This document shows, in pieces, positions 1,653 through 60,921 of a stretch of 64,000 nucleotides of DNA. Both the position numbers and the translations under genes were made by a program. The DNA is from an uncultured Planctomycetia bacterium. GTDB taxonomy: Bacteria; Omnitrophota; Gorgyraeia; 1-14-0-20-64-10. The stretch is from NCBI GenBank assembly GCA_964373805.1, contig CAYJWF010000001.1, positions 47,181 to 111,180 on the forward strand. Reading direction: 5' to 3'. A model generated the notes under the pieces. The model saw only the letters and a program-made list of their open reading frames with translations, had not been told where the DNA came from and ran no database searches. How positions within the stretch are numbered: position 1 is the stretch's first letter; the number at the start of each line of letters is the position of its first letter.

Positions 1653-3095
1653 TCACGCCCTTCCGTTCAGACGATGGCTGACCTCTTTCATGAGCTGCTC
1701 CTGCAGATCTCCCAGGGGAACCCTTTTGAACACCTGCTCAAAGAATCCTTCCACGATGAGCCGTTCCGCCTCTGGCCGAGGGAGTCCTCGACTCATCAGG
1801 TAAAAGCTCTGCTCCTCATCCACAGGCCCGACGGCCACCCCATGGGTGCAGCGCACGTCGTCCGCCTCGATCTCCAACATAGGAACCGAGTCGGCTTTCG
1901 CTCCTTGGCTTAACAGGAGGTTCCGATTGGCCTGGTAGGCATCCGATTTCTGCGCCTCTTTTCGAATCCGAATCAGTCCCGTGTAGATCGATTGGGATCG
2001 ATCTTTGAGGGCGCTCTTGTACAGGAGGTCGCTTGTCGTGTGGGGGGCCCGATGGTCTTGAAGCGTGTGGAAGTCAAAATGTTGATCGGCTTGTTCAAAG
2101 AAGACTCCCAGCAGATCGGACCGACTCCCAGGTTCCGACAATTCCGTTTCCACCTGGGCTTTGGTCAGGCAACTTCCTAGGCCGACCAAGAGGTTGAAGA
2201 ATTGGGCATCCCGTTTCAAGACCGCCCGCTGGGTGTAAAGTTGCGTGGTGGCGAGGTTCCATCGTTGAAGGTGGAGGTACCGGAGGCTGGCCCCTTCTTG
2301 GATAACGATCTCCACCATCTCATCGGCAAAAAGCGGTTGTGCACCTACCCCTACGTTTTTGGCTGCGCCAGCGGCCAGTTCAGGGAAGTGCCGCACATCA
2401 GCGCGGCCTACCCCTACGTTTTTGGCTGCGCTGGGGCGCGTGGTGGCGCTTCCGACAGCGCCAGCCGCTGCGCTGGGGCGCGTGGTGGCGCTTCCGACAG
2501 CGCCAGCCGCCGCGCTAGCGGCCAATCTAGAAAAGTCCCGCGCATCAGCGCGGGGCTCCCCATCGGATCTCCTCTCATCGATCACGGTCACCTCAGCGCC
2601 GGCTCCCACGACCAAAAGGGTGTGGGGAAAGATCGGTCCGTTTCCCCCCTGGGCCTCCACCCAGCACCTGATAGGAAGTCTCACCCGGACTCCTTCCGGG
2701 ATGTAACAGAAGATCCCGGGATGGAAGAGGGCCTGATGCAGGGCGATGAATTTTGAGAGTCCCTGAGGGGTTCCGGTGCGAAAGAGATGCTCCTCGACCA
2801 GCTCCGGAAACTGTCGGAGGGCCGTGTCAAGGTCCGTTACGATGACCCCGTCCCGGACCGATTCCGAGGGGAGTTCCTCCCAGCCTGCCTGGAAGGCAGG
2901 AACGTCCTGCTCACCCTCGATCGAGGTTCTCGCTTTCGCGAGGATGGGTAAACTCCCGCGAGAATCAAACTCTCCCTCTGAGAGGTGAAGCTGGGCCGGG
3001 TCGGTCCGGCGCCACTCCTCGTCGGTCTTGGTCGGCCAGGGAAGGGCTTCGAACCGTTTCCAGGCCTCCTGCCGGAACTCCTTGACGTTAACCAA
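1653..3095 (-). CDS. sufD: Fe-S cluster assembly protein SufD carrying an in-frame repeat-element insertion
   Basis: SufD-like C-terminal half (LYTGLIRI..., SRGL...EAERLIVEGFF); ORF-track 5' extension to 3176 is Arg/Ser-rich and judged spurious, likely TTG start at 3095 overlapping sufB stop; contains ~70-aa Ala/Gly-rich insert encoded by palindromic repeat at 2345-2557. Confidence 0.7.
   Translation of the reverse strand: MVNVKEFRQEAWKRFEALPWPTKTDEEWRRTDPAQLHLSEGEFDSRGSLPILAKARTSIEGEQDVPAFQAGWEELPSESVRDGVIVTDLDTALRQFPELVEEHLFRTGTPQGLSKFIALHQALFHPGIFCYIPEGVRVRLPIRCWVEAQGGNGPIFPHTLLVVGAGAEVTVIDERRSDGEPRADARDFSRLAASAAAGAVGSATTRPSAAAGAVGSATTRPSAAKNVGVGRADVRHFPELAAGAAKNVGVGAQPLFADEMVEIVIQEGASLRYLHLQRWNLATTQLYTQRAVLKRDAQFFNLLVGLGSCLTKAQVETELSEPGSRSDLLGVFFEQADQHFDFHTLQDHRAPHTTSDLLYKSALKDRSQSIYTGLIRIRKEAQKSDAYQANRNLLLSQGAKADSVPMLEIEADDVRCTHGVAVGPVDEEQSFYLMSRGLPRPEAERLIVEGFFEQVFKRVPLGDLQEQLMKEVSHRLNGRA
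2345..2557. repeat. rearranged double copy of ~105-bp GC-rich palindromic element, in-frame inside sufD
   Basis: Units L (ctacccctacgtttttggctgcgc, x2), B (tggggcgcgtggtggcgcttccgacagcgccagccgc, perfect x2) and C (gcgctagcggccaatctagaaaagtcccgcgcatcagcgcggggctc); reverse complement of the copy at 28866-28972. Confidence 0.8.
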
Positions 3096-5574
3096 CCGAT
3101 CCCTCCATCTCCAATTGGATGAGCCGGTTGAGTTCCACCGCGTACTCGAGCGGCAGCTCCTTGGCGAATGCCTCAAAGAAGCCGTTCACAATCATCGTGG
3201 TCGCCTCCTGCTCTTTAAGTCCTCGGCTCATCAGGTAGAACAGCTGCTCCTCCCCCACCTTGCTCACCGTCGCCTCGTGTTCGATCCGCACCTGTTCGGC
3301 ATCAATCTCCATGGTGGGATAGGTATCCGATCGGGAGATTTCGTCCATCAGCAACGCATCGCAGCGAACCGAAGATTTCACATGCTCGGCCTGAGGATAG
3401 ACCTTCACCAACCCTCGGTAGCTGGTGCGGCCGCCGTCTTTGGAGATCGACTTTGACAGGATCGTGGAGCTGGTTTCTGAAGCGGCATGAACCATCTTGG
3501 CTCCGGCGTCTTGGTGCTGGCCCTTGCCAGAAAACGCCACCGAAACGACTTCCCCTCGGGCCTTGCGCCCCATCAAATAAACCCCGGGGTACTTCATGGT
3601 CAGCTTTGAGCCCAAATTTCCATCGAGCCATTCAACGATCGCATTCTCATAGGCGATGGCCCGTTTTGTGACCAGGTTGTACACGTTCTTTGACCAGTTC
3701 TGGATTGTCGTGTATCGGATGTGCGCGTGGGGCATGGCCACGAGCTCCACCACCGCCGAGTGAAGGCTGTCGGACGAATAGGTAGGAGCCGTGCAGTTGT
3801 GGACGGCAAAACCACGAGCCAGGTAAGCGTTCGGCGCACGGTCCATCTCGATGTTAAAGACCGGTCCTTCATAAGGAGCACGTCGAATTTCTTTCACCGG
3901 TACAAGGAAGGAATCTCCTTGGCGGCGGACTTCACCCATCTGCCTATTGGGGGAATAATAAATGATGTACTGATCCTGCCGAGTTATGGGTCGCCCCAGG
4001 ATCGTATCCTTTCCTCCTTTACGTAAGGAGATGGTTGCGTAATGGCCTTGACGTGCCAGAAGCTCCTGGAGCTGTCGAGCCAAGTTCAAAGAAACAGTCG
4101 AAGCGCGGAGCATGGTATGGGCTCGCCGATACCAACTCCCATCCCCCAGAAAGTACGTCTCCAACAGATGAGCCTGTTTCTCTGGTGGAAGCTCCATGAT
4201 CGTCTTGCTCAGCTGCTTCGTCGATGCCCCTTTGCCGCAGCTTTCAAGGCAAAGCTCCCTGAGAGGGCGGGAGTAGACTACCACGTTAATTCCATGTTTC
4301 TTGCGGTCTACGACTTCCATAGCCCGCTTGCCCGTCACCTCGCGAATAAGTTTCTTGGCCTCTTCCACCAGGGCCCGGTCTGTGGAGCCGAATGAGAGTG
4401 CGACAACCGGCATCCGCAGGGTCTTGTGGACAAACGTAGATCCTTCGGCCAGGTAGTAGCCTAGGAGGCGCAGAGCAGGTACGGTGTACCGAGGATCATC
4501 TTGGGTCTTCTTTGGGATTGGGAAGACGATGAAATCTCCTCGCTGAAGTTTGCCCGCTTCTATGAAATGGGGTTCCGTTGTAAGAAGCTTGGAGGTGCTC
4601 ACCTCTCCAAGCCAGTGGCCGCGCGCTTTCCGGGCGACGCGAACATCCTCTCGCTGGACACCCAGCACAGGGTGCTCCGGTGTGAGGCGAAAGCTGTTTC
4701 CAGAAGACAGTGGCTGGATCGTGATCAGCTCGCCACGGTAGGGACGCACGCGACTGGCCGCAACCTTTGCCTCCTCACCGTTACTGTTCAAAACGCTGTC
4801 GCCTGGCTGGATCGATTCGATGTTTACCCAGCGTTGGCCGGTAGAAACCTGTTCGCCTGCAGGCAGGCATCCCTCTATGTAATGCACGCTGGATCCCTCG
4901 TCGGCGATGATCAAGGTCCGTTCGAACTGGCCCATGTTCTCCGCGTTGATTCGGAAATAGGCCTGCAAGGGAATGGCTACCTTCACCCCTTTCGGAACGT
5001 AGATAAAGCTTCCTCCCGACCAGACCGCGGAGTTTAAAGCGGAAAACTTGTTGTCCGCTGAGGGGATCACCGTGCCAAAGTACTTTTTCACCAACTCCGG
5101 ATATTTCTTGAGGCCATCGTCCATCCCAAGGAAGATGACCCCTTGTTTCTCGAGATCTTCTCGAAGAGAGTGGTACACGACCTCAGACTCGTATTGGGCG
5201 GTGACCCCCGCGAGGAACTTCCGTTCCGCCTCTGGGATTCCCAATTTTTCAAAGGTGTTCTTGATATCCTCGGGAACCTCCTCCCAGCTTTTCTCCTGTT
5301 TATCCACCGGCTTCAGGTAGTAATGGATGTTGTCGAAGTGGATCTGGGAAAGGAGCGTCAAATCGGCCCAGGCCGGTAAGGGCTTCCGGTTGAAATGTTC
5401 CAGCGCCTTTAATCGAAGTTCCCGCATCCAATCCGGTTCCGACTTCATCCAGGAGATCTCCTCCACCACTTCCTTGGAGAGGCCCTTCTTGGCCTTGAAG
5501 AGGTAATGCTCCGGATCGTGGAATCCGTACTTCTCTTCGTAGTCTTTCCCGATATTGAGCGGTTTATCCGTCAT
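3088..5574 (-). CDS. sufB: Fe-S cluster assembly protein SufB interrupted by an intein (extein 470 aa + intein 358 aa)
   Basis: 828 aa instead of ~470; SufB N- and C-terminal halves; conserved EGC|TAP site split by insert beginning CLPAG and ending VHN followed by CTAPTYSS. Confidence 0.9.
3796..4869 (-). mobile_element. intein with LAGLIDADG homing-endonuclease domain inside sufB
   Basis: Insert residues 236-593: N-terminal Cys (codon 4867-4869), C-terminal His-Asn (3796-3801) followed by +1 Cys (3793-3795); two LAGLIDADG motifs [10 protein letters not shown] and [10 protein letters not shown]; exteins rejoin to canonical SufB ...[13 protein letters not shown]... Confidence 0.85.
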
Positions 5575-6338: not shown

Positions 6339-6815
6339 TCAGCTCTTTAAAGGCGGGGTGAGCCAGGTCATCCGTTGGCCTAAGGTCTGACGGATCTTGG
6401 CCTCCGACCCCATTAAATCCGACAGGAAAGTTCCATCCAGAAAGGCCTGAATGGCCATGGTCAGCGTCTCCCACGCGGATCGGATGCAGCACTCATCGAT
6501 GTGGATACAACTGGAACGATTTCCCGTGAACTGATGGCAGATCTCCTCGGTGTTGGGGACTTTTCCTAGGGCCCGAACCACGTTGCCCAGGCTGATCTCC
6601 TGGGCGTGGCGATTGAGGAGATACCCCCCTCTCATCCCTCGGACCGAGTGGATCAAGCCCGCTCGGCCGAGCAGGCGAAGCAGCTTCTCCACGTAGGCTG
6701 GGGAGAGGCCTTCCTTCAAGGCGATCGCCTTGACGGTTAACCCCCCCTTCTCCTCGGCCTGGGCCAGCTGCAACAAGCACCTTAAGCCATACTCTTCTTG
6801 CGCCGTGATCTTCAT
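6339..6815 (-). CDS. Rrf2-family transcriptional regulator (IscR/SufR-like)
   Basis: Rrf2 N-terminus MKITAQEEYGLRCLLQLA and three Cys in C-terminal half; start moved to ATG 6815 (ORF-track start 6941 reads through a palindromic repeat). Confidence 0.75.
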   Translation of the reverse strand: MKITAQEEYGLRCLLQLAQAEEKGGLTVKAIALKEGLSPAYVEKLLRLLGRAGLIHSVRGMRGGYLLNRHAQEISLGNVVRALGKVPNTEEICHQFTGNRSSCIHIDECCIRSAWETLTMAIQAFLDGTFLSDLMGSEAKIRQTLGQRMTWLTPPLKS

Positions 6816-6920
6816 CCTATAATCTAGGATACCAGGAAACATGACTCTTTTGTCAACTATTTTCATGGGGTCTGACCCCATGGGGTTGCAGGGCGTTTTA
6901 CAATTTGATACAGTACGTCT

Positions 6921-7454
6921 ATGATCCTTAAAGTAACCCAATTAGGACACCCAATTCTTCGCCTGAAGGCGAAACCAGTTCCAGTCGGGAGAATTACCAC
7001 TTCCCCCTTTCAGGCTTTCCTGGAGGATTTGGGTTCGACCCTGCACGAATACAATGGGGTAGGGATCGCTGCTCCTCAGGTTCATGTCTCCCTCCAGGTG
7101 GCGGTGATCGAGGTCGACCGGAACCCCCGATACCCGAAGGCCCCCAGGATCTCACGGACGATCCTCATCAATCCCCGCGTCAAACCGATCGGAAAACTCA
7201 AGGCATTCGACTGGGAAGGATGCCTTTCGGTCGACGGCTTTCGCGGACGCGTTCCACGCTGGCGTTCGGTAGAGGTTCAGGCGTATAATGCCCGCGGTGA
7301 ACCAATTCGGATCAAGGCGCACGGTTTTTTTGCCCGGGTGATTCAACACGAATGGGATCACCTGCAAGGAAAGGTGTATCTGGATCGGATGGAGGATCTT
7401 TTGACCCTGACGCATCTTACCGAATATACGCGCTATTGGCAGAGCCATGGTTAA
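6921..7454 (+). CDS. def: peptide deformylase
   Basis: GVGIAAPQV, EGCLS and HEWDHLQG motifs. Confidence 0.85.
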   Translation: MILKVTQLGHPILRLKAKPVPVGRITTSPFQAFLEDLGSTLHEYNGVGIAAPQVHVSLQVAVIEVDRNPRYPKAPRISRTILINPRVKPIGKLKAFDWEGCLSVDGFRGRVPRWRSVEVQAYNARGEPIRIKAHGFFARVIQHEWDHLQGKVYLDRMEDLLTLTHLTEYTRYWQSHG

Positions 7455-9052: not shown

Positions 9053-9118
9053 GATTTCTACGGGAAAGCTGCGTAATTTCGCCATCCCTTTCTACTGAGC
9101 GTGGTAAACTACTGCTCG

Positions 9119-9550
9119 ATGTTCACCCTCGAGAAATCTCTCGAAAAACTGGCCAAGGCGCACCGGGAGATCGTGGCCCTTTATCTGTTTGGATCTCAGG
9201 CCACGGCGAAGAAGGGGCCTTTGAGTGATGTAGACGTCGCTCTGTTACTGGATGAGGGACGGGTCCAGCCTCGGAAACGATTCGATCTTCAGCTTGAGCT
9301 GCTCGGCGAGGCGATGCACCGTTGTAGGCGATCCGATGTCGACCTGGTGTTGTTGAACGAGGCAACCCCCTTGTTGGCCTACGAAGTGATCCGATCCGGT
9401 CGGCTCCTTTACGAGCGGGACCACGATGCCCGCGTTTCCTTTGAGGCCAAGGCACTTCAACATTACCTGGATCTAGAGCCGTTCTACCGGGTTGGTCGCC
9501 AGTACCTCAGGCACCAGCTTCTTCATGCAAAGGGGCATGGTCAATCCTGA
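9119..9550 (+). CDS. nucleotidyltransferase (MntA-like antitoxin)
   Basis: LFGSQATAKKGPLSDVDVALL minimal NTase motif; start moved to ATG 9119. Confidence 0.7.
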   Translation: MFTLEKSLEKLAKAHREIVALYLFGSQATAKKGPLSDVDVALLLDEGRVQPRKRFDLQLELLGEAMHRCRRSDVDLVLLNEATPLLAYEVIRSGRLLYERDHDARVSFEAKALQHYLDLEPFYRVGRQYLRHQLLHAKGHGQS

Positions 9551-9950
9551 GGTCGTTGCCAATCGGCTGAGTAGACTTAAGGAGTACCTGGGCTATCTGC
9601 GCAGCCTCCGGCGCTATCCTTACAAGCGGTTTTCCAGTGATCCCTTTATTCGAGGCAGTGCCGAGCGGTACCTTCATTTGGCCATTGAGTGCTGCCTGGA
9701 CATGGGCAACCACCTGATCGCGGACCGGGAGCTTCGCAAGGCCCAGGATTACCGAGAGGTATTTCTCATCCTGGGGGAAGTCAAGATCCTTCCTCCCGCG
9801 TTTGCCAAGCGGATCGCTCCCATGGGAAGCTTCAGGAACATCCTCGTTCACGATTATCTGCGAGTAGATCCGAAGAAGGTGTACGAGTTCCTGCACAAGC
9901 ACCTTGCCGATTTCACCCGGTTCGCCACGGCCATGGCGAAGTTCCTTTAG
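9537..9950 (+). CDS. HEPN-domain toxin (HepT/DUF86)
   Basis: FRNILVHDY (Rx4-6H HEPN motif); overlaps upstream NTase gene; start moved to ATG 9537. Confidence 0.7.
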   Translation: MVNPEVVANRLSRLKEYLGYLRSLRRYPYKRFSSDPFIRGSAERYLHLAIECCLDMGNHLIADRELRKAQDYREVFLILGEVKILPPAFAKRIAPMGSFRNILVHDYLRVDPKKVYEFLHKHLADFTRFATAMAKFL

Positions 9951-28638: not shown

Positions 28639-29382
28639 ATGCCGCGTAAACGGGAACTGACGTTCTGGGAACGAATTTACCTACCGGAGATTGTCCGGGG
28701 GGTGTGGATTACCTCTCGTCACTTCTTCGTTAATCTCTTTCTCCACACGGCACATCTCTTTGGGCTGTTCAAGGACCGCGCGGCCTCGGTCACCTTTCAG
28801 TATCCGGAGCAGCCCCGACCGTTGGCTCCCCGTTTAAGGACTCGGCATCGGTTAACGGTTCGGCCAGAGCCCCGCGCTGACGCGCGGGACTTTTCTGGAT
28901 TGGCCGCTGACGCAGCGGCTGGCGCTGTCGGAAGCGCCACCACGCGCTCCGGCGCAGCCAGAAACATAGAGGAAGGGACTCCCCGGTGTGTGGCCTGCAT
29001 GCTCTGCGAGACGGTCTGCCCGGCCAAATGCATCACGATCGTCGCTGGAGAGCACCCGGATCCGAACGTGGAGAAATATCCGATTCGGTTCGACATTGAT
29101 TTAGGGGTCTGCGTCTACTGCGGCTACTGTGTCGAGGCCTGTCCGGAGGATGCCATTCGGATGGACACCGAGATCCTGGACATCGCCGCCTATTCTAGGG
29201 CCCAGATGAAGCTGGACATCCATGAGCTCATGGATCCCAAGCTGCGCAAGCCGGTGAACCAGTGTGAACTAAGGTTTCCACACCAATGCGCCCTGCACGG
29301 TGGTCAGATGAAAGGGAACTGGCAAGACGTCTATGGGAAAACGGAACAGGGACTGTCCCCGCAGGGGACTGTCCCTGGCTAA
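28639..29382 (+). CDS. nuoI: NADH-quinone oxidoreductase subunit I with in-frame ~35-aa repeat-encoded insert and C-terminal extension
   Basis: Two 4Fe-4S motifs CVACMLCETVCP and CVYCGYCVEACP; insert PRADARDFSGLAADAAAGAVGSATTRSGAARN between N-terminal segment and first ferredoxin motif. Confidence 0.8.
   Translation: MPRKRELTFWERIYLPEIVRGVWITSRHFFVNLFLHTAHLFGLFKDRAASVTFQYPEQPRPLAPRLRTRHRLTVRPEPRADARDFSGLAADAAAGAVGSATTRSGAARNIEEGTPRCVACMLCETVCPAKCITIVAGEHPDPNVEKYPIRFDIDLGVCVYCGYCVEACPEDAIRMDTEILDIAAYSRAQMKLDIHELMDPKLRKPVNQCELRFPHQCALHGGQMKGNWQDVYGKTEQGLSPQGTVPG
28866..28972. repeat. single copy of the same ~105-bp palindromic element, in-frame inside nuoI
   Basis: gagccccgcgctgacgcgcgggacttttctggattggccgctgacgcagcggctggcgctgtcggaagcgccaccacgcgctccggcgcagccagaaacatagagg. 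Confidence 0.8.
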
Positions 29383-58256: not shown

Positions 58257-58613
58257 ATGCATGGGGTAATTGTTATGGAAATTTCATGGGCGGTTACTCG
58301 AGAAAAGATTGAGCAGGCTGTTAAGAGGATCATCCGTTTTGAGCAGCCAAGGAGGGTTGTTTTGTTTGGTTCCGCGGCGCATGGCAATGCCACACTTCAC
58401 AGCGACGCGGATATTCTCGTGGTAACCAAGAAGGAAGTGGACAGCTCTCGTAAGGAGAGTGTTCGGATCCGTCGGCAACTACGTGGTATTTCCATGCCAA
58501 TGGACATCCTGGTGATTTCAGAAAATCGCCTAAAGGCATTGGCCGACCATCCCGGACTCATCTATCGGGAGGCCCTGCGGCATGGAAAAGTCCTCTATGA
58601 GGCCGCAGCCTGA
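58257..58613 (+). CDS. nucleotidyltransferase (MNT antitoxin-like)
   Basis: LFGSAAHGNATLHSDADILVV. Confidence 0.7.
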   Translation: MHGVIVMEISWAVTREKIEQAVKRIIRFEQPRRVVLFGSAAHGNATLHSDADILVVTKKEVDSSRKESVRIRRQLRGISMPMDILVISENRLKALADHPGLIYREALRHGKVLYEAAA

Positions 58614-59007
58614 AAAGGGGATTCCGGGATCGCCAAGAGAATGGCTGATCCACGCTGAAAGTGATCTAAAACTGGCCTGCTTGGCCAGAGATTCCGAAGG
58701 TGTTTTACCGGAACAGAGCTGTTTTCACTCCCAGCAGACGGCTGAGAAAGCCTTGAAAGCTGTTCTCCTTTTCAATAAGATCGATTTCCCCCTTACCCAT
58801 GATATCGAAGAGCTACTTGAACTCGGTAAACAAGGAGGTTTAACGCTGCCCTCCCAGATAGAGGAGGTAGGTAGCCTTACTCCCGATGCCGTGGAGGCCC
58901 GCTACCCTGGTCATTTTGAAGAAATTACATCTCCCGACGTTGATGAGGCAATCCGCGTAGCTGAAGTAGTTCTTCAGTGGGCTAGGGAGATCGTTGGAGA
59001 GTCGTAA
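58582..59007 (+). CDS. HEPN-domain protein
   Basis: FHSQQTAEKALKAVL, EARYPGHF HEPN features; overlaps NTase gene. Confidence 0.7.
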   Translation: MEKSSMRPQPEKGIPGSPREWLIHAESDLKLACLARDSEGVLPEQSCFHSQQTAEKALKAVLLFNKIDFPLTHDIEELLELGKQGGLTLPSQIEEVGSLTPDAVEARYPGHFEEITSPDVDEAIRVAEVVLQWAREIVGES

Positions 59008-60009: not shown

Positions 60010-60921
60010 TTAGTACCGTTCGATCTGGTTGAGCAGGATGTAGCTTAGGTAATCCTTTTGGGCGATCAAGCGTAAGGCCCCCTTGCGCCGGCGCCAAAAG
60101 GCGTACAGGCTGATCCGCAGGTTCAAGGCGGCCGCCTCCTCCTTGTAAAAGCGGAGGTAGTAAAGTTCCACCGCCTGACGCTGGGAAGGCGGCAACCCCT
60201 TCACCGTTCCATGGACCCGTTCGTGATGGTAAGGGTTGAGGAACTGGTACGGGACGCATCGAAGATACGAGTAGCCGGTGAGCTTGCGCTGAGCGGGATC
60301 CGGAGGATTCTCCAGGGTCCGGTAGTTTTTCAAAAGGGTGGGCCAAAAGGTCTGCTTGAAAACCCAGCGGAATCCGGTGGTCTCGAAGGGAGGGATCGCG
60401 GCGTAGTTCAAGCCCCGCCGATGCGGGACTCTTCTCGACGGGCCGCTATCGCAGCCAGAAACGTAGAGGAAGAGGCACTCTTTAAAGGTTCGGTAAACAA
60501 TTCTCTGAAAATCGTTCTGGGAGAAGGCGCGGTAGTCTCCTCGGCAGTAAAGCTTCTCCTCCATGGACCGCAGGACAAAACGGCATCCCTCGGTCGAAAG
60601 GAGAAATTCCCAACAGGAAAGGGCCCATTGGATGGCCGGCTGAAACTCGGCCAGCAGCTCTCCATAGGCCTGGCCGAAGCCGGAGCTGTCTTGGGATTGA
60701 TGGGCTTTCGCGGCCTGGGCGACCAGTTTTTGAATGGGGGCTTTTCCCCGCTGAAAGCAGGGAGCCTTCGGCCGCCGAAAGAGCTGAGGCAACCATAGGT
60801 CTAGAGGGGGCGCTTCCTCCTCGACAAAGGAAAAAGGATCCTTCAACAGAATCATTGGACGCCTCGGCGATAACCGCGCATCTTGAAGTAAGTATAGCAC
60901 AGGACCTCCCCTCGTTGACAA
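60010..60921 (-). CDS. protein with sigma-70 region-4-like C-terminal HTH
   Basis: LPPSQRQAVELYYLRFYKEEAAALNLRISLYAFWRRRKGALRL resembles sigma70 r4. Confidence 0.35.
   Translation of the reverse strand: MSTRGGPVLYLLQDARLSPRRPMILLKDPFSFVEEEAPPLDLWLPQLFRRPKAPCFQRGKAPIQKLVAQAAKAHQSQDSSGFGQAYGELLAEFQPAIQWALSCWEFLLSTEGCRFVLRSMEEKLYCRGDYRAFSQNDFQRIVYRTFKECLFLYVSGCDSGPSRRVPHRRGLNYAAIPPFETTGFRWVFKQTFWPTLLKNYRTLENPPDPAQRKLTGYSYLRCVPYQFLNPYHHERVHGTVKGLPPSQRQAVELYYLRFYKEEAAALNLRISLYAFWRRRKGALRLIAQKDYLSYILLNQIERY

What the first reader, a model, noticed from the sequence alone, without database searches (positions are those of the whole stretch)
3796..4869. SufB intein with intact LAGLIDADG homing endonuclease at the conserved EGC|TAP site
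SufB is 828 aa. Removing residues 236-593 restores the ~470-aa protein with contiguous ...SSVHYIEG|[12 protein letters not shown]. The insert starts with Cys, ends His-Asn, is followed by Cys, and contains both LAGLIDADG blocks ([20 protein letters not shown]). It is probably an active or recently active selfish element in an essential Fe-S assembly gene.
Basis: partly seen in the sequence, partly recalled or inferred. Interest (0 to 1): 0.6.

Follow-up and report, generated by a model that had tools for sequence, protein, structure and literature searches.

The report
Homing-endonuclease intein inside SufB gene
The iron-sulfur assembly gene sufB in this window is interrupted, in frame, by a 358-residue self-splicing protein element (an intein) that carries its own DNA-cutting enzyme; it is real and intact, but it is an ordinary member of a very widespread, already known kind.

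Summary
Observation confirmed exactly. The sufB ORF (3088-5574, minus strand) encodes 828 aa, and residues 236-593 (window 3796-4869) are an in-frame insert. Removing it gives a 470-aa protein that matches the SufB model TIGR01980 end to end.

The insert has Cys1, block B T63xxH66, terminal His357-Asn358 followed by Cys+1, and two LAGLIDADG motifs with their acidic residues (E142, D243). A confident AlphaFold model (pLDDT 91.5) matches solved endonuclease-bearing inteins (TliVMA, PI-SceI, PI-PkoII).

Homologous inteins sit at the identical VHY[IV]EG|C...HN|CTAP site in at least 374 species genomes of bacteria and archaea. It is the same insertion point as the studied M. tuberculosis SufB intein. 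The +1 Cys aligns with E. coli SufB Cys254, the sulfur acceptor.

The closest SufB proteins (85-89% identical, Omnitrophota) lack the intein, and one lies in a fully syntenic operon. Intein-plus and intein-minus alleles are interleaved in the extein tree, and the endonuclease domain is under purifying selection (pN 0.15 vs pS 0.72).

Verdict: a genuine, probably splicing-competent and possibly still mobile intein, and a new member of a known kind. Splicing and cleavage were not tested. Generic intein-splicing profiles score below their curated cut-offs.

The parts
3088..5574 (-). sufB precursor ORF, 828 aa plus stop
   Evidence: ORF. TIGR01980 at 703 bits in two stretches; the identical protein occurs in three independent assemblies.
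4870..5574 (-). N-extein, SufB residues 1-235, ending ...SSVHYIEG (His at -5, Gly at -1)
   Evidence: PF19295 SufBD_N.
3796..4869 (-). Intein, 358 aa (precursor residues 236-593)
   Evidence: AlphaFold pLDDT 91.5. Foldseek E = 9e-19 to the TliVMA intein and 1e-16 to PI-SceI.
4831..4869 (-). Block [14 protein letters not shown]. Cys1 is the first nucleophile.
   Evidence: Cys1 is invariant in 79 of 79 family members.
4663..4701 (-). Block [14 protein letters not shown] (T63-x-x-H66)
   Evidence: T63 and H66 are invariant; collinear weak alignment to block B of PI-PkoII.
4525..4869 (-). N-terminal lobe of the splicing (Hint) domain, intein residues 1-115. It includes a basic, less confidently modelled loop around residues 81-90.
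   Evidence: beta-strand pattern; block pLDDT 64 for residues 81-90..
3940..4524 (-). LAGLIDADG homing-endonuclease domain, intein residues ~116-310. The boundaries are approximate.
   Evidence: PF14528 at 48 bits against a cut-off of 22.5, two stretches; profile E = 2.4e-18 to PI-PkoII. I-DmoI at E ~2e-6; two alpha-beta-beta-alpha-beta-beta-alpha units.
4438..4467 (-). LAGLIDADG motif 1 (block C), [10 protein letters not shown], with acidic residue E142
   Evidence: E in 77 and D in 2 of 79 members.
4186..4224 (-). Block D region, [13 protein letters not shown], with conserved Lys218
   Evidence: invariant. K in 77 and R in 2 of 79. The block assignment is from my own knowledge of intein block nomenclature.
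4135..4164 (-). LAGLIDADG motif 2 (block E), [10 protein letters not shown], with acidic residue D243
   Evidence: D in 78 of 79.
3796..3939 (-). C-terminal lobe of the splicing domain, intein residues 311-358
3811..3864 (-). Block [19 protein letters not shown]. Position F:4 is Asn339 (invariant in the family) rather than Asp, and the usual His position is Asn347.
3793..3810 (-). Block G, FAVHN, plus the +1 Cys of the C-extein
   Evidence: H357 and N358 are invariant in 79 of 79; the +1 Cys aligns with E. coli SufB Cys254.
3088..3795 (-). C-extein, 235 aa plus stop, starting [12 protein letters not shown]. It has the same length as the C-extein of M. tuberculosis SufB.
   Evidence: PMC8891592.
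5571..6332 (-). sufC (ABC ATPase), upstream in the same operon
   Evidence: synteny with L083.
1653..3176 (-). sufD, downstream in the operon. It carries an unrelated in-frame repeat insert (see noticed in passing).
6339..6941 (-). Rrf2-family regulator at the head of the operon

Best explanation
Window 3796-4869 encodes a class-1 intein of 358 aa, a Hint-fold protein-splicing domain with a two-motif LAGLIDADG homing endonuclease nested inside it. It is inserted in frame in sufB, immediately before the conserved Cys that corresponds to E. coli SufB Cys254, the sulfur acceptor.

Inferred mechanism, which is the established class-1 pathway:
1. The 828-aa precursor is translated.
2. Cys1, helped by the block B Thr63/His66, converts the Gly-1/Cys1 peptide bond into a thioester.
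3. The +1 Cys attacks this thioester to form a branched intermediate.
4. Asn358, helped by His357, cyclises and releases the intein.
5. An S-to-N acyl shift leaves a normal 470-aa SufB with ...YIEG-CTAP... restored.

At the DNA level, the free or precursor-borne endonuclease is expected to cut intein-less sufB alleles across the sequence CATTACATMGAGGGA|TGCACGGCYCC. Recombinational repair would then copy the intein in. This is homing.

Shown here: the anatomy, the fold, conservation of the catalytic residues, the identical insertion site across at least 374 species genomes, empty-site alleles in the nearest relatives, and purifying selection on both domains.

Inferred, not shown: that the element splices, and that the endonuclease is still active.
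For: - Boundaries and restored host protein. TIGR01980 matches at 724 bits over positions 2-448 of 448 after removal of the insert.
- Endonuclease: PF14528 scores 48 bits, above its cut-off. A family profile hits PI-PkoII at E = 2.4e-18 and the TliVMA intein at 5.5e-12.
- Fold: the model has pLDDT 91.5 and pTM 0.88. The sixteen best Foldseek matches are all endonuclease-bearing inteins covering both domains (TliVMA TM 0.72, PI-SceI, PhoVMA, PI-PkoII, PI-PfuI). I-DmoI follows for the endonuclease domain alone.
- Family conservation in 79 full-length members: C1, T63, H66, N339, H357 and N358 are invariant. E142 is E or D in 79 of 79, D243 is D in 78 of 79, and K218 is K or R in 79 of 79. The endonuclease domain is about as conserved as the splicing lobes (mean column identity 0.59 against 0.62 and 0.65).
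- All 80 fetched loci carry the intein at the same SufB site.
- The closest SufB proteins (85-89% identity over 470 aa, Omnitrophica-labelled) are intein-less. One, L083, lies in a syntenic operon, and its uninterrupted site matches the window's flanks at 43 of 60 nt, including 22 of the central 24.
- The extein NJ tree interleaves intein-plus (window, L003, L004, L005) with intein-minus alleles.
- Window against L003: for the endonuclease domain pN is 0.145 and pS is 0.722; for the N-terminal splicing lobe (residues 1-115) 0.173 and 0.744; for the C-terminal lobe (residues 311-358) 0.078 and 0.617; for the exteins 0.06-0.09 and 0.55-0.68.
- Same insertion point as the experimentally splicing M. 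tuberculosis SufB intein: Gly252|Cys253, His at -5, a 235-aa C-extein, and 359 aa (PMC8891592).
Against: - Generic intein-splicing profiles are below their curated cut-offs: PF14890 at 27.5 against 35.8, TIGR01445 at 14.5 against 24.5, TIGR01443 at 13.8 against 15.6.
- Block F lacks the commonly cited Asp and His; both positions are Asn here, although Asn339 is invariant in the whole family.
- dS is saturated in every comparison available, so dN/dS values are rough and say nothing about the recent past.
- The 80 loci were retrieved with peptide patterns taken from block C and blocks F/G. This biases the sample towards members with intact motifs.
- No splicing or cleavage experiment exists for this sequence.
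- No intein-less variant from the same population was looked for.
Confidence: 0.88

Rival explanations
1. The intein still splices, but its endonuclease no longer homes. On this reading it is a resident, vertically inherited element. The endonuclease domain is kept because it stabilises the splicing fold, or because no empty sites remain within reach.
For: Within the window's own small clade, intein identity tracks extein identity: L003 has 78% in the intein and 87-91% in the exteins, and L004 has 74% and 81-91%. This fits long vertical descent. dS is saturated, which implies old divergence. No copy of this family was found on phages or plasmids, only inteins of 22-25% identity in other genes.
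Against: Both LAGLIDADG acidic residues and the block D Lys are retained. The endonuclease domain shows the same strength of purifying selection as the splicing lobes. Intein-less alleles are interleaved with intein-bearing ones among close relatives, so targets exist in the gene pool. The intein's third-position GC (0.61 against 0.73) and codon usage (RSCU correlation with neighbouring genes 0.50 against 0.83 for the exteins) differ from the host gene.
Confidence: 0.3
2. The intein has been co-opted as a redox- or sulfur-responsive switch. Cys1 and Cys+1, the latter being the sulfur-acceptor Cys of SufB, would form a disulfide under oxidative stress. Splicing would then be conditional and would gate SufBCD assembly, as proposed for M. 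tuberculosis SufB.
For: The insertion point and the Cys1/Cys+1 pair are the same as in the M. tuberculosis intein. For that intein, oxidative inhibition through a Cys1-Cys+1 disulfide is reported, and the unspliced precursor fails to bind SufC and SufD (summarised in PMC8529194). The family is retained at this one site across many phyla. Homologous inteins also sit before a conserved Cys of IscU.
Against: Nothing in the sequence distinguishes a regulator from a parasite that exploits an immutable codon. The nearest relatives do without the intein. The distribution is patchy rather than clade-fixed.
Confidence: 0.1
3. The insert is a non-splicing insertion or a decaying pseudogene, or it is an assembly chimera. 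In that case this sufB copy would not be functional.
For: Generic splicing-domain profiles score below their curated thresholds.
Against: The 828-codon frame is uninterrupted. All catalytic residues are present. The exteins are under strong purifying selection, with pN 0.06-0.09. sufB is the only copy in the 64-kb window and sits in a complete suf operon. The identical protein appears in three independent assemblies. Eighty other genomes have the same architecture.
Confidence: 0.02

Closest known systems
Mycobacterium tuberculosis SufB (Pps1, Rv1461) intein
   Same: The host protein and the insertion point are the same: Gly-1 | Cys1 with His at -5, a C-extein of exactly 235 aa, and Cys at +1. 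The size is nearly the same (359 aa against 358). The block B His is at position 67 against 66, the intein ends His-Asn, and it contains an endonuclease domain (PMC8891592; window data). It is a class-1 intein whose splicing has been shown experimentally.
   Different: The host here is an uncultured Omnitrophota-like bacterium, not an actinobacterium. The N-extein is 235 aa rather than 252, and residue -38 is Lys rather than the His studied in M. tuberculosis (read directly from the sequence). Actinobacterial alleles at the same site (e.g. the Frankiaceae-labelled P0188) are 36-40% identical over the full length.
SufB inteins of uncultured Omnitrophota/Planctomycetia MAGs (L003 JACQCH010000015, L004, L005, L006)
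   Same: These are the closest relatives found. The inteins are 69-78% identical, sit at the same site and have the same length. The exteins are 74-92% identical.
   Different: They are unannotated and unstudied sequences. They differ from the window by saturated synonymous divergence.
Endonuclease-bearing archaeal and yeast inteins with solved structures (TliVMA 7QSU/7QSS, PI-SceI 1VDE/1LWS, PI-PkoII 2CW7, PI-PfuI 1DQ3)
   Same: The two-domain architecture is the same, with a Hint splicing domain and a nested two-motif LAGLIDADG endonuclease. Foldseek gives E = 1e-12 to 9e-19 and TM up to 0.72. A family profile matches PI-PkoII at 2.4e-18.
   Different: Sequence identity is only 9-18%. The host proteins differ (VMA ATPase, DNA polymerase, RNR). 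Those inteins are larger and have extra DNA-recognition regions. Block F here has Asn where Asp is usual.
Ferroplasma/Thermoplasmata SufB inteins
   Same: Archaeal SufB inteins are known (Ferroplasma is mentioned in PMC8891592). Thermoplasmata MAGs (L056, L059, L060, L062, L067, L074, L076, L081) carry full-length homologues at the identical site, 44-46% identical.
   Different: PMC8891592 states that the Ferroplasma insertion site and sequence diverge from the mycobacterial ones. Ferroplasma itself was not examined here.

Membership tests
Intein (class 1, Hint-fold protein-splicing element) | An in-frame insertion in a conserved host protein whose precise removal restores the contiguous host sequence | tested here: met
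   the spliced 470-aa product matches TIGR01980 over positions 2-448 of 448 in one stretch, while the precursor match breaks at residue 236.
Intein (class 1, Hint-fold protein-splicing element) | Block A: Cys, Ser or Thr as the first residue | tested here: met
   Cys1, invariant in 79 of 79 homologues.
Intein (class 1, Hint-fold protein-splicing element) | Block B: the T-x-x-H motif | tested here: met
   T63-P-E-H66, both invariant.
Intein (class 1, Hint-fold protein-splicing element) | Block F: a beta-strand motif, usually with Asp at F:4 and a His | tested here: inconclusive
   [18 protein letters not shown] aligns collinearly with block F of PI-PkoII and is strongly conserved. However, F:4 is Asn339 (79 of 79), and the usual His position is Asn in 62 of 79 members and His in only 1. 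From my own knowledge, these two residues are not universal among active inteins.
Intein (class 1, Hint-fold protein-splicing element) | Block G: a penultimate His and terminal Asn, followed by Cys, Ser or Thr at +1 | tested here: met
   H357-N358 | Cys+1, invariant in 79 of 79.
Intein (class 1, Hint-fold protein-splicing element) | The Hint fold, formed by the N- and C-terminal lobes | tested here: met
   Model pLDDT 91.5. The full-length Foldseek matches are to solved inteins, with E down to 9e-19 and TM 0.72.
Intein (class 1, Hint-fold protein-splicing element) | A score above the curated cut-offs of the generic splicing-domain profiles. This is an operational criterion, not a mechanistic one. 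| tested here: inconclusive
   PF14890 scores 27.5 bits against a cut-off of 35.8 (E = 3.1e-6). TIGR01445 scores 14.5 against 24.5. TIGR01443 scores 13.8 against 15.6. PF13403 has E = 0.11. The E-value is significant but the scores are below curation thresholds.
Intein (class 1, Hint-fold protein-splicing element) | Intein-less (empty-site) alleles exist in related organisms | tested here: met
   470-aa SufB proteins at 85-89% identity, including a syntenic operon in L083 with an uninterrupted YIEG-CTAP site.
Intein (class 1, Hint-fold protein-splicing element) | Autocatalytic protein splicing | not testable with these tools
   This needs expression of the precursor and detection of the ligated exteins.
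LAGLIDADG homing endonuclease (two-motif, intein-borne) | Two LAGLIDADG motifs, each ending in a catalytic Asp or Glu | tested here: met
   [10 protein letters not shown] (E142) and [10 protein letters not shown] (D243). Conserved in 79 of 79 and 78 of 79 members. PF14528 scores 48 bits against a cut-off of 22.5, in two stretches.
LAGLIDADG homing endonuclease (two-motif, intein-borne) | A pseudo-dimeric alpha-beta-beta-alpha-beta-beta-alpha fold | tested here: met
   Secondary-structure order: H130-142, E143-148, E153-161, H165-179, E184-188, E193-199, H201-211; then H229-243, E244-248, E252-258, H261-273, E279-283, E286-290. Foldseek matches I-DmoI at E ~2e-6 with target TM ~0.68.
LAGLIDADG homing endonuclease (two-motif, intein-borne) | Site-specific double-strand cleavage of the intein-less allele | not testable with these tools
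   This needs purified protein and a substrate carrying the L083 site.
SufB intein at the M. tuberculosis Pps1/SufB insertion site | The same insertion point in SufB | tested here: met
   In the window: Gly-1 | Cys1, His at -5, a 235-aa C-extein, Cys at +1. In M. tuberculosis: Gly252 | Cys253, His248 at -5, a 235-aa C-extein (PMC8891592). The +1 Cys corresponds to E. coli Cys254.
SufB intein at the M. tuberculosis Pps1/SufB insertion site | Sequence homology to the M. tuberculosis intein itself (the same allelic lineage) | not tested
   The M. tuberculosis sequence was not retrievable. Protein searches returned no Mycobacterium-labelled hit. Actinobacterial alleles at the site are 36-40% identical.
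SufB (TIGR01980), the host protein | An equivalog-level match and a suf operon context | tested here: met
   724 bits against a cut-off of 346. The operon order is Rrf2-sufC-sufB-sufD-Rieske-sufA, syntenic with L083.

The most novel reading that the evidence does not exclude
This intein lineage may be specialised for the reactive cysteines of Fe-S scaffold proteins. In SufB it sits before the Cys254-equivalent sulfur acceptor. Full-length homologues of 35-40% identity sit before a conserved Cys of IscU/NifU-N in DPANN-type archaea. On this reading the element persists not only as a parasite but also as a redox- or persulfide-sensitive conditional-splicing switch that gates assembly of the scaffold complex.
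Probability: 0.1. Interest if true: 0.55.

Novelty: new member of a known kind. Interest (0 to 1): 0.2.

Why it matters
For the window itself it matters mainly for annotation. The 828-aa 'SufB' is a precursor, and the functional protein is the 470-aa ligation product. Gene callers often truncate such genes: many database relatives begin inside the intein.

More broadly, the survey done here gives three results. First, the SufB intein site studied in M. tuberculosis as a drug target and stress sensor is occupied by one homologous intein family in at least 374 species-level genomes of bacteria and archaea. Second, in Omnitrophota the element is patchily present among near-identical alleles, which gives natural intein-plus and intein-minus pairs for testing homing. 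Third, the family has also colonised IscU.

None of this changes the understanding of inteins. The window's element is a textbook example.

Tried and rejected
1. Generic profile searches for the splicing blocks (Pfam, NCBIfam) gave only sub-threshold matches. I relied instead on the fold, the family conservation and the empty sites.
2. A single-sequence PDB search found only PI-PkoII at E = 4e-5. The family profile raised this to 2.4e-18.
3. A direct comparison with the M. tuberculosis intein was attempted. The PNAS 2015 paper, the NAR 2001 PI-MgaI paper and the J Bacteriol 2006 paper are not held. A third protein search seeded with an actinobacterial-type allele returned no Mycobacterium-labelled protein. 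Site identity is therefore argued from residue numbers in PMC8891592, and homology to that intein is left untested.
4. Phage and plasmid collections hold only distant inteins of 22-25% identity in other genes. There is no evidence for a vector.
5. dN/dS: dS is saturated against all three nearest relatives. I report pN and pS and treat the ratios as rough.
6. Lower third-position GC in the intein is seen in the window (0.61 against 0.73) and in 73 of 78 loci. I considered this as evidence of recent transfer and rejected it as decisive, because weaker codon selection on less constrained residues would give the same pattern.
7. A weak tblastn hit of intein residues 17-98 at window 58418-58669 (-) (E = 0.009) lies antisense to two toxin-antitoxin-type ORFs. 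I dismissed it as chance.
8. DNA similarity between the IscU and SufB target sites is 14 of 48 nt, which is near random. The IscU copies are therefore not explained by a shared recognition sequence.
Full report

Yes, to the base. One search lists a single ORF on the minus strand, 3088..5574, of 828 aa. locates CLPAGEQV...FAVHN at precursor residues 236-593, which is window 3796-4869 (358 aa). It is preceded by ...[12 protein letters not shown] and followed by [12 protein letters not shown]....

The exact 828-aa protein is on record from an NCBI contig of 146,904 bp and from two independent Logan assemblies, ERR4904390 and ERR4904391. An assembly chimera is therefore excluded.

**2. The host gene**

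With the insert removed, the 470-aa product matches the SufB equivalog model TIGR01980 over positions 2-448 of 448 in one stretch (724 bits against a cut-off of 346). The precursor matches in two stretches that break at residue 236.

The gene lies in a complete suf operon on the minus strand, in the order Rrf2 regulator, sufC, sufB, sufD, Rieske protein, sufA. It is the only sufB in the window; the only other hit is the paralogue sufD.

The +1 Cys aligns without gaps to Cys254 of E. coli SufB (5AWF chain A). [quoted passage not shown] The intein therefore uses an essential, immutable host cysteine as its own +1 nucleophile.

**3. The insert: sequence profiles**

- The endonuclease part is unambiguous. 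Pfam LAGLIDADG_3 scores 48 bits against a cut-off of 22.5, in two stretches.
- The splicing part is weak by generic profiles. PF14890 scores 27.5 bits (E = 3e-6) against a cut-off of 35.8. TIGR01445 scores 14.5 against 24.5. TIGR01443 scores 13.8 against 15.6.
Taken literally, at curated thresholds, the test is borderline.
- A profile built from 13 full-length family members (A1) hits PI-PkoII at 2.4e-18 and the TliVMA intein at 5.5e-12 through the endonuclease domain. Blocks B and F align collinearly but weakly.

**4. The insert: structure**

AlphaFold2 on alignment A1 gives mean pLDDT 91.5 and pTM 0.88. The model has a beta-rich N-lobe, two alpha-beta-beta-alpha-beta-beta-alpha units, and a beta-rich C-lobe.

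Foldseek against the PDB returns as its sixteen best hits only endonuclease-bearing inteins aligned over both domains:

| Match | E-value |
|---|---|
| TliVMA 7QSU (TM 0.72) | 9e-19 |
| PI-SceI | 1e-16 |
| PhoVMA | 5e-14 |
| PI-PkoII | 1e-13 |
| PI-PfuI | 4.5e-12 |

The free-standing LAGLIDADG enzyme I-DmoI follows, for the central domain only. This settles the Hint plus LAGLIDADG architecture.

**5. Catalytic residues and the family**

A protein search with the intein alone found 62 relatives. Nearly all are SufB proteins with the insert at the same VHY[IV]EG|C...HN|CTAP junction.

All 80 loci fetched have the intein at this exact site. They come from Omnitrophota, Planctomycetia-labelled MAGs, Chloroflexota, Armatimonadota, Eisenbacteria, candidate-phyla-radiation groups, Thermoplasmata, Nitrososphaerota, Micrarchaeota and ARMAN-4.

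In 79 full-length members:

| Residue | Role | Conservation |
|---|---|---|
| C1, T63, H66, H357, N358 | splicing | invariant |
| E142 | LAGLIDADG-1 acid | E in 77, D in 2 |
| D243 | LAGLIDADG-2 acid | D in 78 of 79 |
| K218 | block D Lys | K in 77, R in 2 |

Mean column identity of the endonuclease domain (0.59) is close to that of the splicing lobes (0.62 and 0.65).

Two departures from the textbook block F are family-wide. Position F:4 is Asn339 in 79 of 79 members, and the usual His position is Asn in 62 of 79.

One caveat applies to these counts. The loci were retrieved with peptide patterns from block C and blocks F/G, which favours members with intact motifs.

**6. Is it mobile?**

- The best SufB matches to the spliced extein are 470-aa, intein-less proteins at 85-89% identity. 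Several are labelled Candidatus Omnitrophica.
- One of them, L083 (GCA_023818695.1), sits in an operon syntenic with the window, down to the flanking deformylase, ACT-domain and CstA genes. Its uninterrupted site matches the window's joined flanks at 43 of 60 nt and at 22 of the central 24.
- The nearest intein-bearing relatives are L003 (Omnitrophota MAG; intein 78%, exteins 87-91%), L004 (74%, 81-91%), L005 and L006.
- In a neighbour-joining tree of exteins, the window groups with L003 (intein-plus) and P0067 (intein-minus). The four intein-plus alleles are scattered among about 40 intein-minus ones. This patchiness among close relatives is the signature of gain and loss.
- Against L003, pN is far below pS in the endonuclease domain (0.145 and 0.722) and in the N- and C-terminal splicing lobes (0.173 and 0.744; 0.078 and 0.617), as in the exteins. 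Both activities have therefore been under purifying selection. dS is saturated, so this says nothing about the last short interval.
- The intein's third-position GC (0.61) and codon usage (RSCU correlation with nine neighbouring genes 0.50) differ from the exteins (0.73 and 0.83). The same GC3 deficit appears in 73 of 78 loci. This is suggestive of foreign origin but is also explicable by weaker codon selection.
- No close copy was found on phages or plasmids.

**7. Mechanism**

The residues present are exactly those of the class-1 pathway described in PMC8891592:

1. An N-S acyl shift at Gly-1/Cys1, assisted by the block B Thr and His.
2. Trans-thioesterification to Cys+1.
3. Cyclisation of Asn358, assisted by His357.
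4. An S-N shift that restores YIEG-CTAP.

At the DNA level, the two-motif LAGLIDADG domain is expected to recognise about 20 bp or more spanning the junction of an empty allele and to initiate homing. Steps 1-4 and the cleavage are inferred. The anatomy, the fold and the conservation are shown.

**8. Comparison with what is known**

The M. tuberculosis SufB (Pps1) intein is 359 aa. It lies between Gly252 and Cys253 with His at -5, is followed by a 235-aa C-extein, has its block B His at position 67, and carries an endonuclease domain (PMC8891592). The window's intein is 358 aa, has Gly-1 and His-5, a 235-aa C-extein and block B His66. This is the same insertion site.

In M. tuberculosis, splicing is required for SufB to bind SufC and SufD, and it is inhibited by oxidation through a Cys1-Cys+1 disulfide (summarised in PMC8529194). 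I could not obtain the M. tuberculosis sequence, so homology to that particular intein is untested. Actinobacterial alleles at the site (e.g. the Frankiaceae-labelled P0188) are 36-40% identical over the full length.

The element is therefore a new member, in a new host phylum, of a known kind.

**9. Verdict**

The element is an ordinary, well-preserved homing-endonuclease intein. Interest is low (0.2).

The most novel reading left open is that this lineage targets reactive cysteines of Fe-S scaffolds, given the homologous inteins in IscU, and acts as a conditional-splicing switch. I put that at about 0.1.

**10. Things seen in passing**

The window's sufD, a NuoI-like gene and a third ORF each carry an in-frame copy of a modular, hairpin-rich short repeat. 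This may deserve more attention than the intein.

Noticed in passing
window 2344-2553 (in sufD, 1653..3176 -); 28867-28976 (in ORF 28639..29382 +); 60412-60478 (in ORF 60010..60921 -): A modular, GC-rich, hairpin-forming short repeat is inserted in frame in three ORFs. It has three modules: A of ~18 nt, B of 42 nt and C of ~45 nt.
- sufD holds A-C-A-B-B-C. This adds about 70 aa that are absent from the syntenic orthologue L083 (402 aa).
- The NuoI-like ferredoxin subunit holds A-B-C. This adds about 34 aa (EPRADARDFSGLAADAAAGAVGSATTRSGAARNI) just before its first Cys cluster. The peptide is nearly the same as in sufD (EPRADARDFSRLAASAAAGAVGSATTRPSAA).
- The third ORF holds A-C, read on the other strand.
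The RNA fold of one copy is -63.5 kcal/mol, z = -3.2, with three hairpins. In concept this resembles Rickettsia palindromic elements that insert into coding genes (my recollection, not checked)..
   Followed up: partly
P0025, P0028, P0032, P0189, P0191, P0193, P0195-P0197; locus L084 2205-3767: Full-length homologues of this intein (35-40% identity, same length, same blocks) interrupt IscU/NifU-N scaffold proteins at ...FQTFG|C...HN|C(V/G)AA.... This is immediately before a conserved Cys, next to a cysteine desulfurase gene, in DPANN-type archaea (one is labelled Diapherotrites). The reconstituted IscU DNA site shares only 14 of 48 nt with the SufB site, so a shared recognition sequence does not explain the jump..
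   Followed up: partly
Loci L007, L008, L012, L014, L020, L029, L030, L033, L035, L036, L038, L039, L045, L046, L057; protein P0098; window site ~3607-3612 (empty): A second SufB intein site...DGNLG|S..., lies 62 residues into the C-extein. It is occupied in about 15 of the 80 related loci, and some SufB ORFs reach 1,200-1,650 aa, which suggests two or three inteins. P0098 has a mini-intein there (CLAAGT...IVAHN|S). The window's site ([15 protein letters not shown]) is empty..
   Followed up: partly
78 related loci (L003-L082), intein against flanking extein: The intein has lower third-position GC than its host sufB in 73 of 78 genomes (mean difference -0.10). In the window the values are 0.61 against 0.73. 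This could be a signature of repeated transfer or of weaker codon selection, and it is not resolved..
   Followed up: partly
window 9101-9950 (+) and 58257-59007 (+): One ORF pair was checked against Pfam: 9101-9550 matches Polbeta/NTP_transf_2 and 9492-9950 matches HepT-like, i.e. a nucleotidyltransferase/HEPN (MNT-HepT-type) toxin-antitoxin pair. It lies in a segment between the ACT-domain gene and cstA that is absent from the syntenic locus L083. A second pair at 58257-59007 looks similar by eye but was not run against any profile..
   Followed up: no
proteins P0001, P0002, P0006, P0018 and others: Many database entries for intein-bearing SufB start inside the intein or are labelled 'SufD family' or 'hypothetical'. 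Examples are P0001 (602 aa, from a 111-kb contig, beginning MREAQYVEG|CLP) and P0006 (581 aa, starting at intein residue ~15). Gene callers and annotators routinely mis-handle this locus..
   Followed up: no
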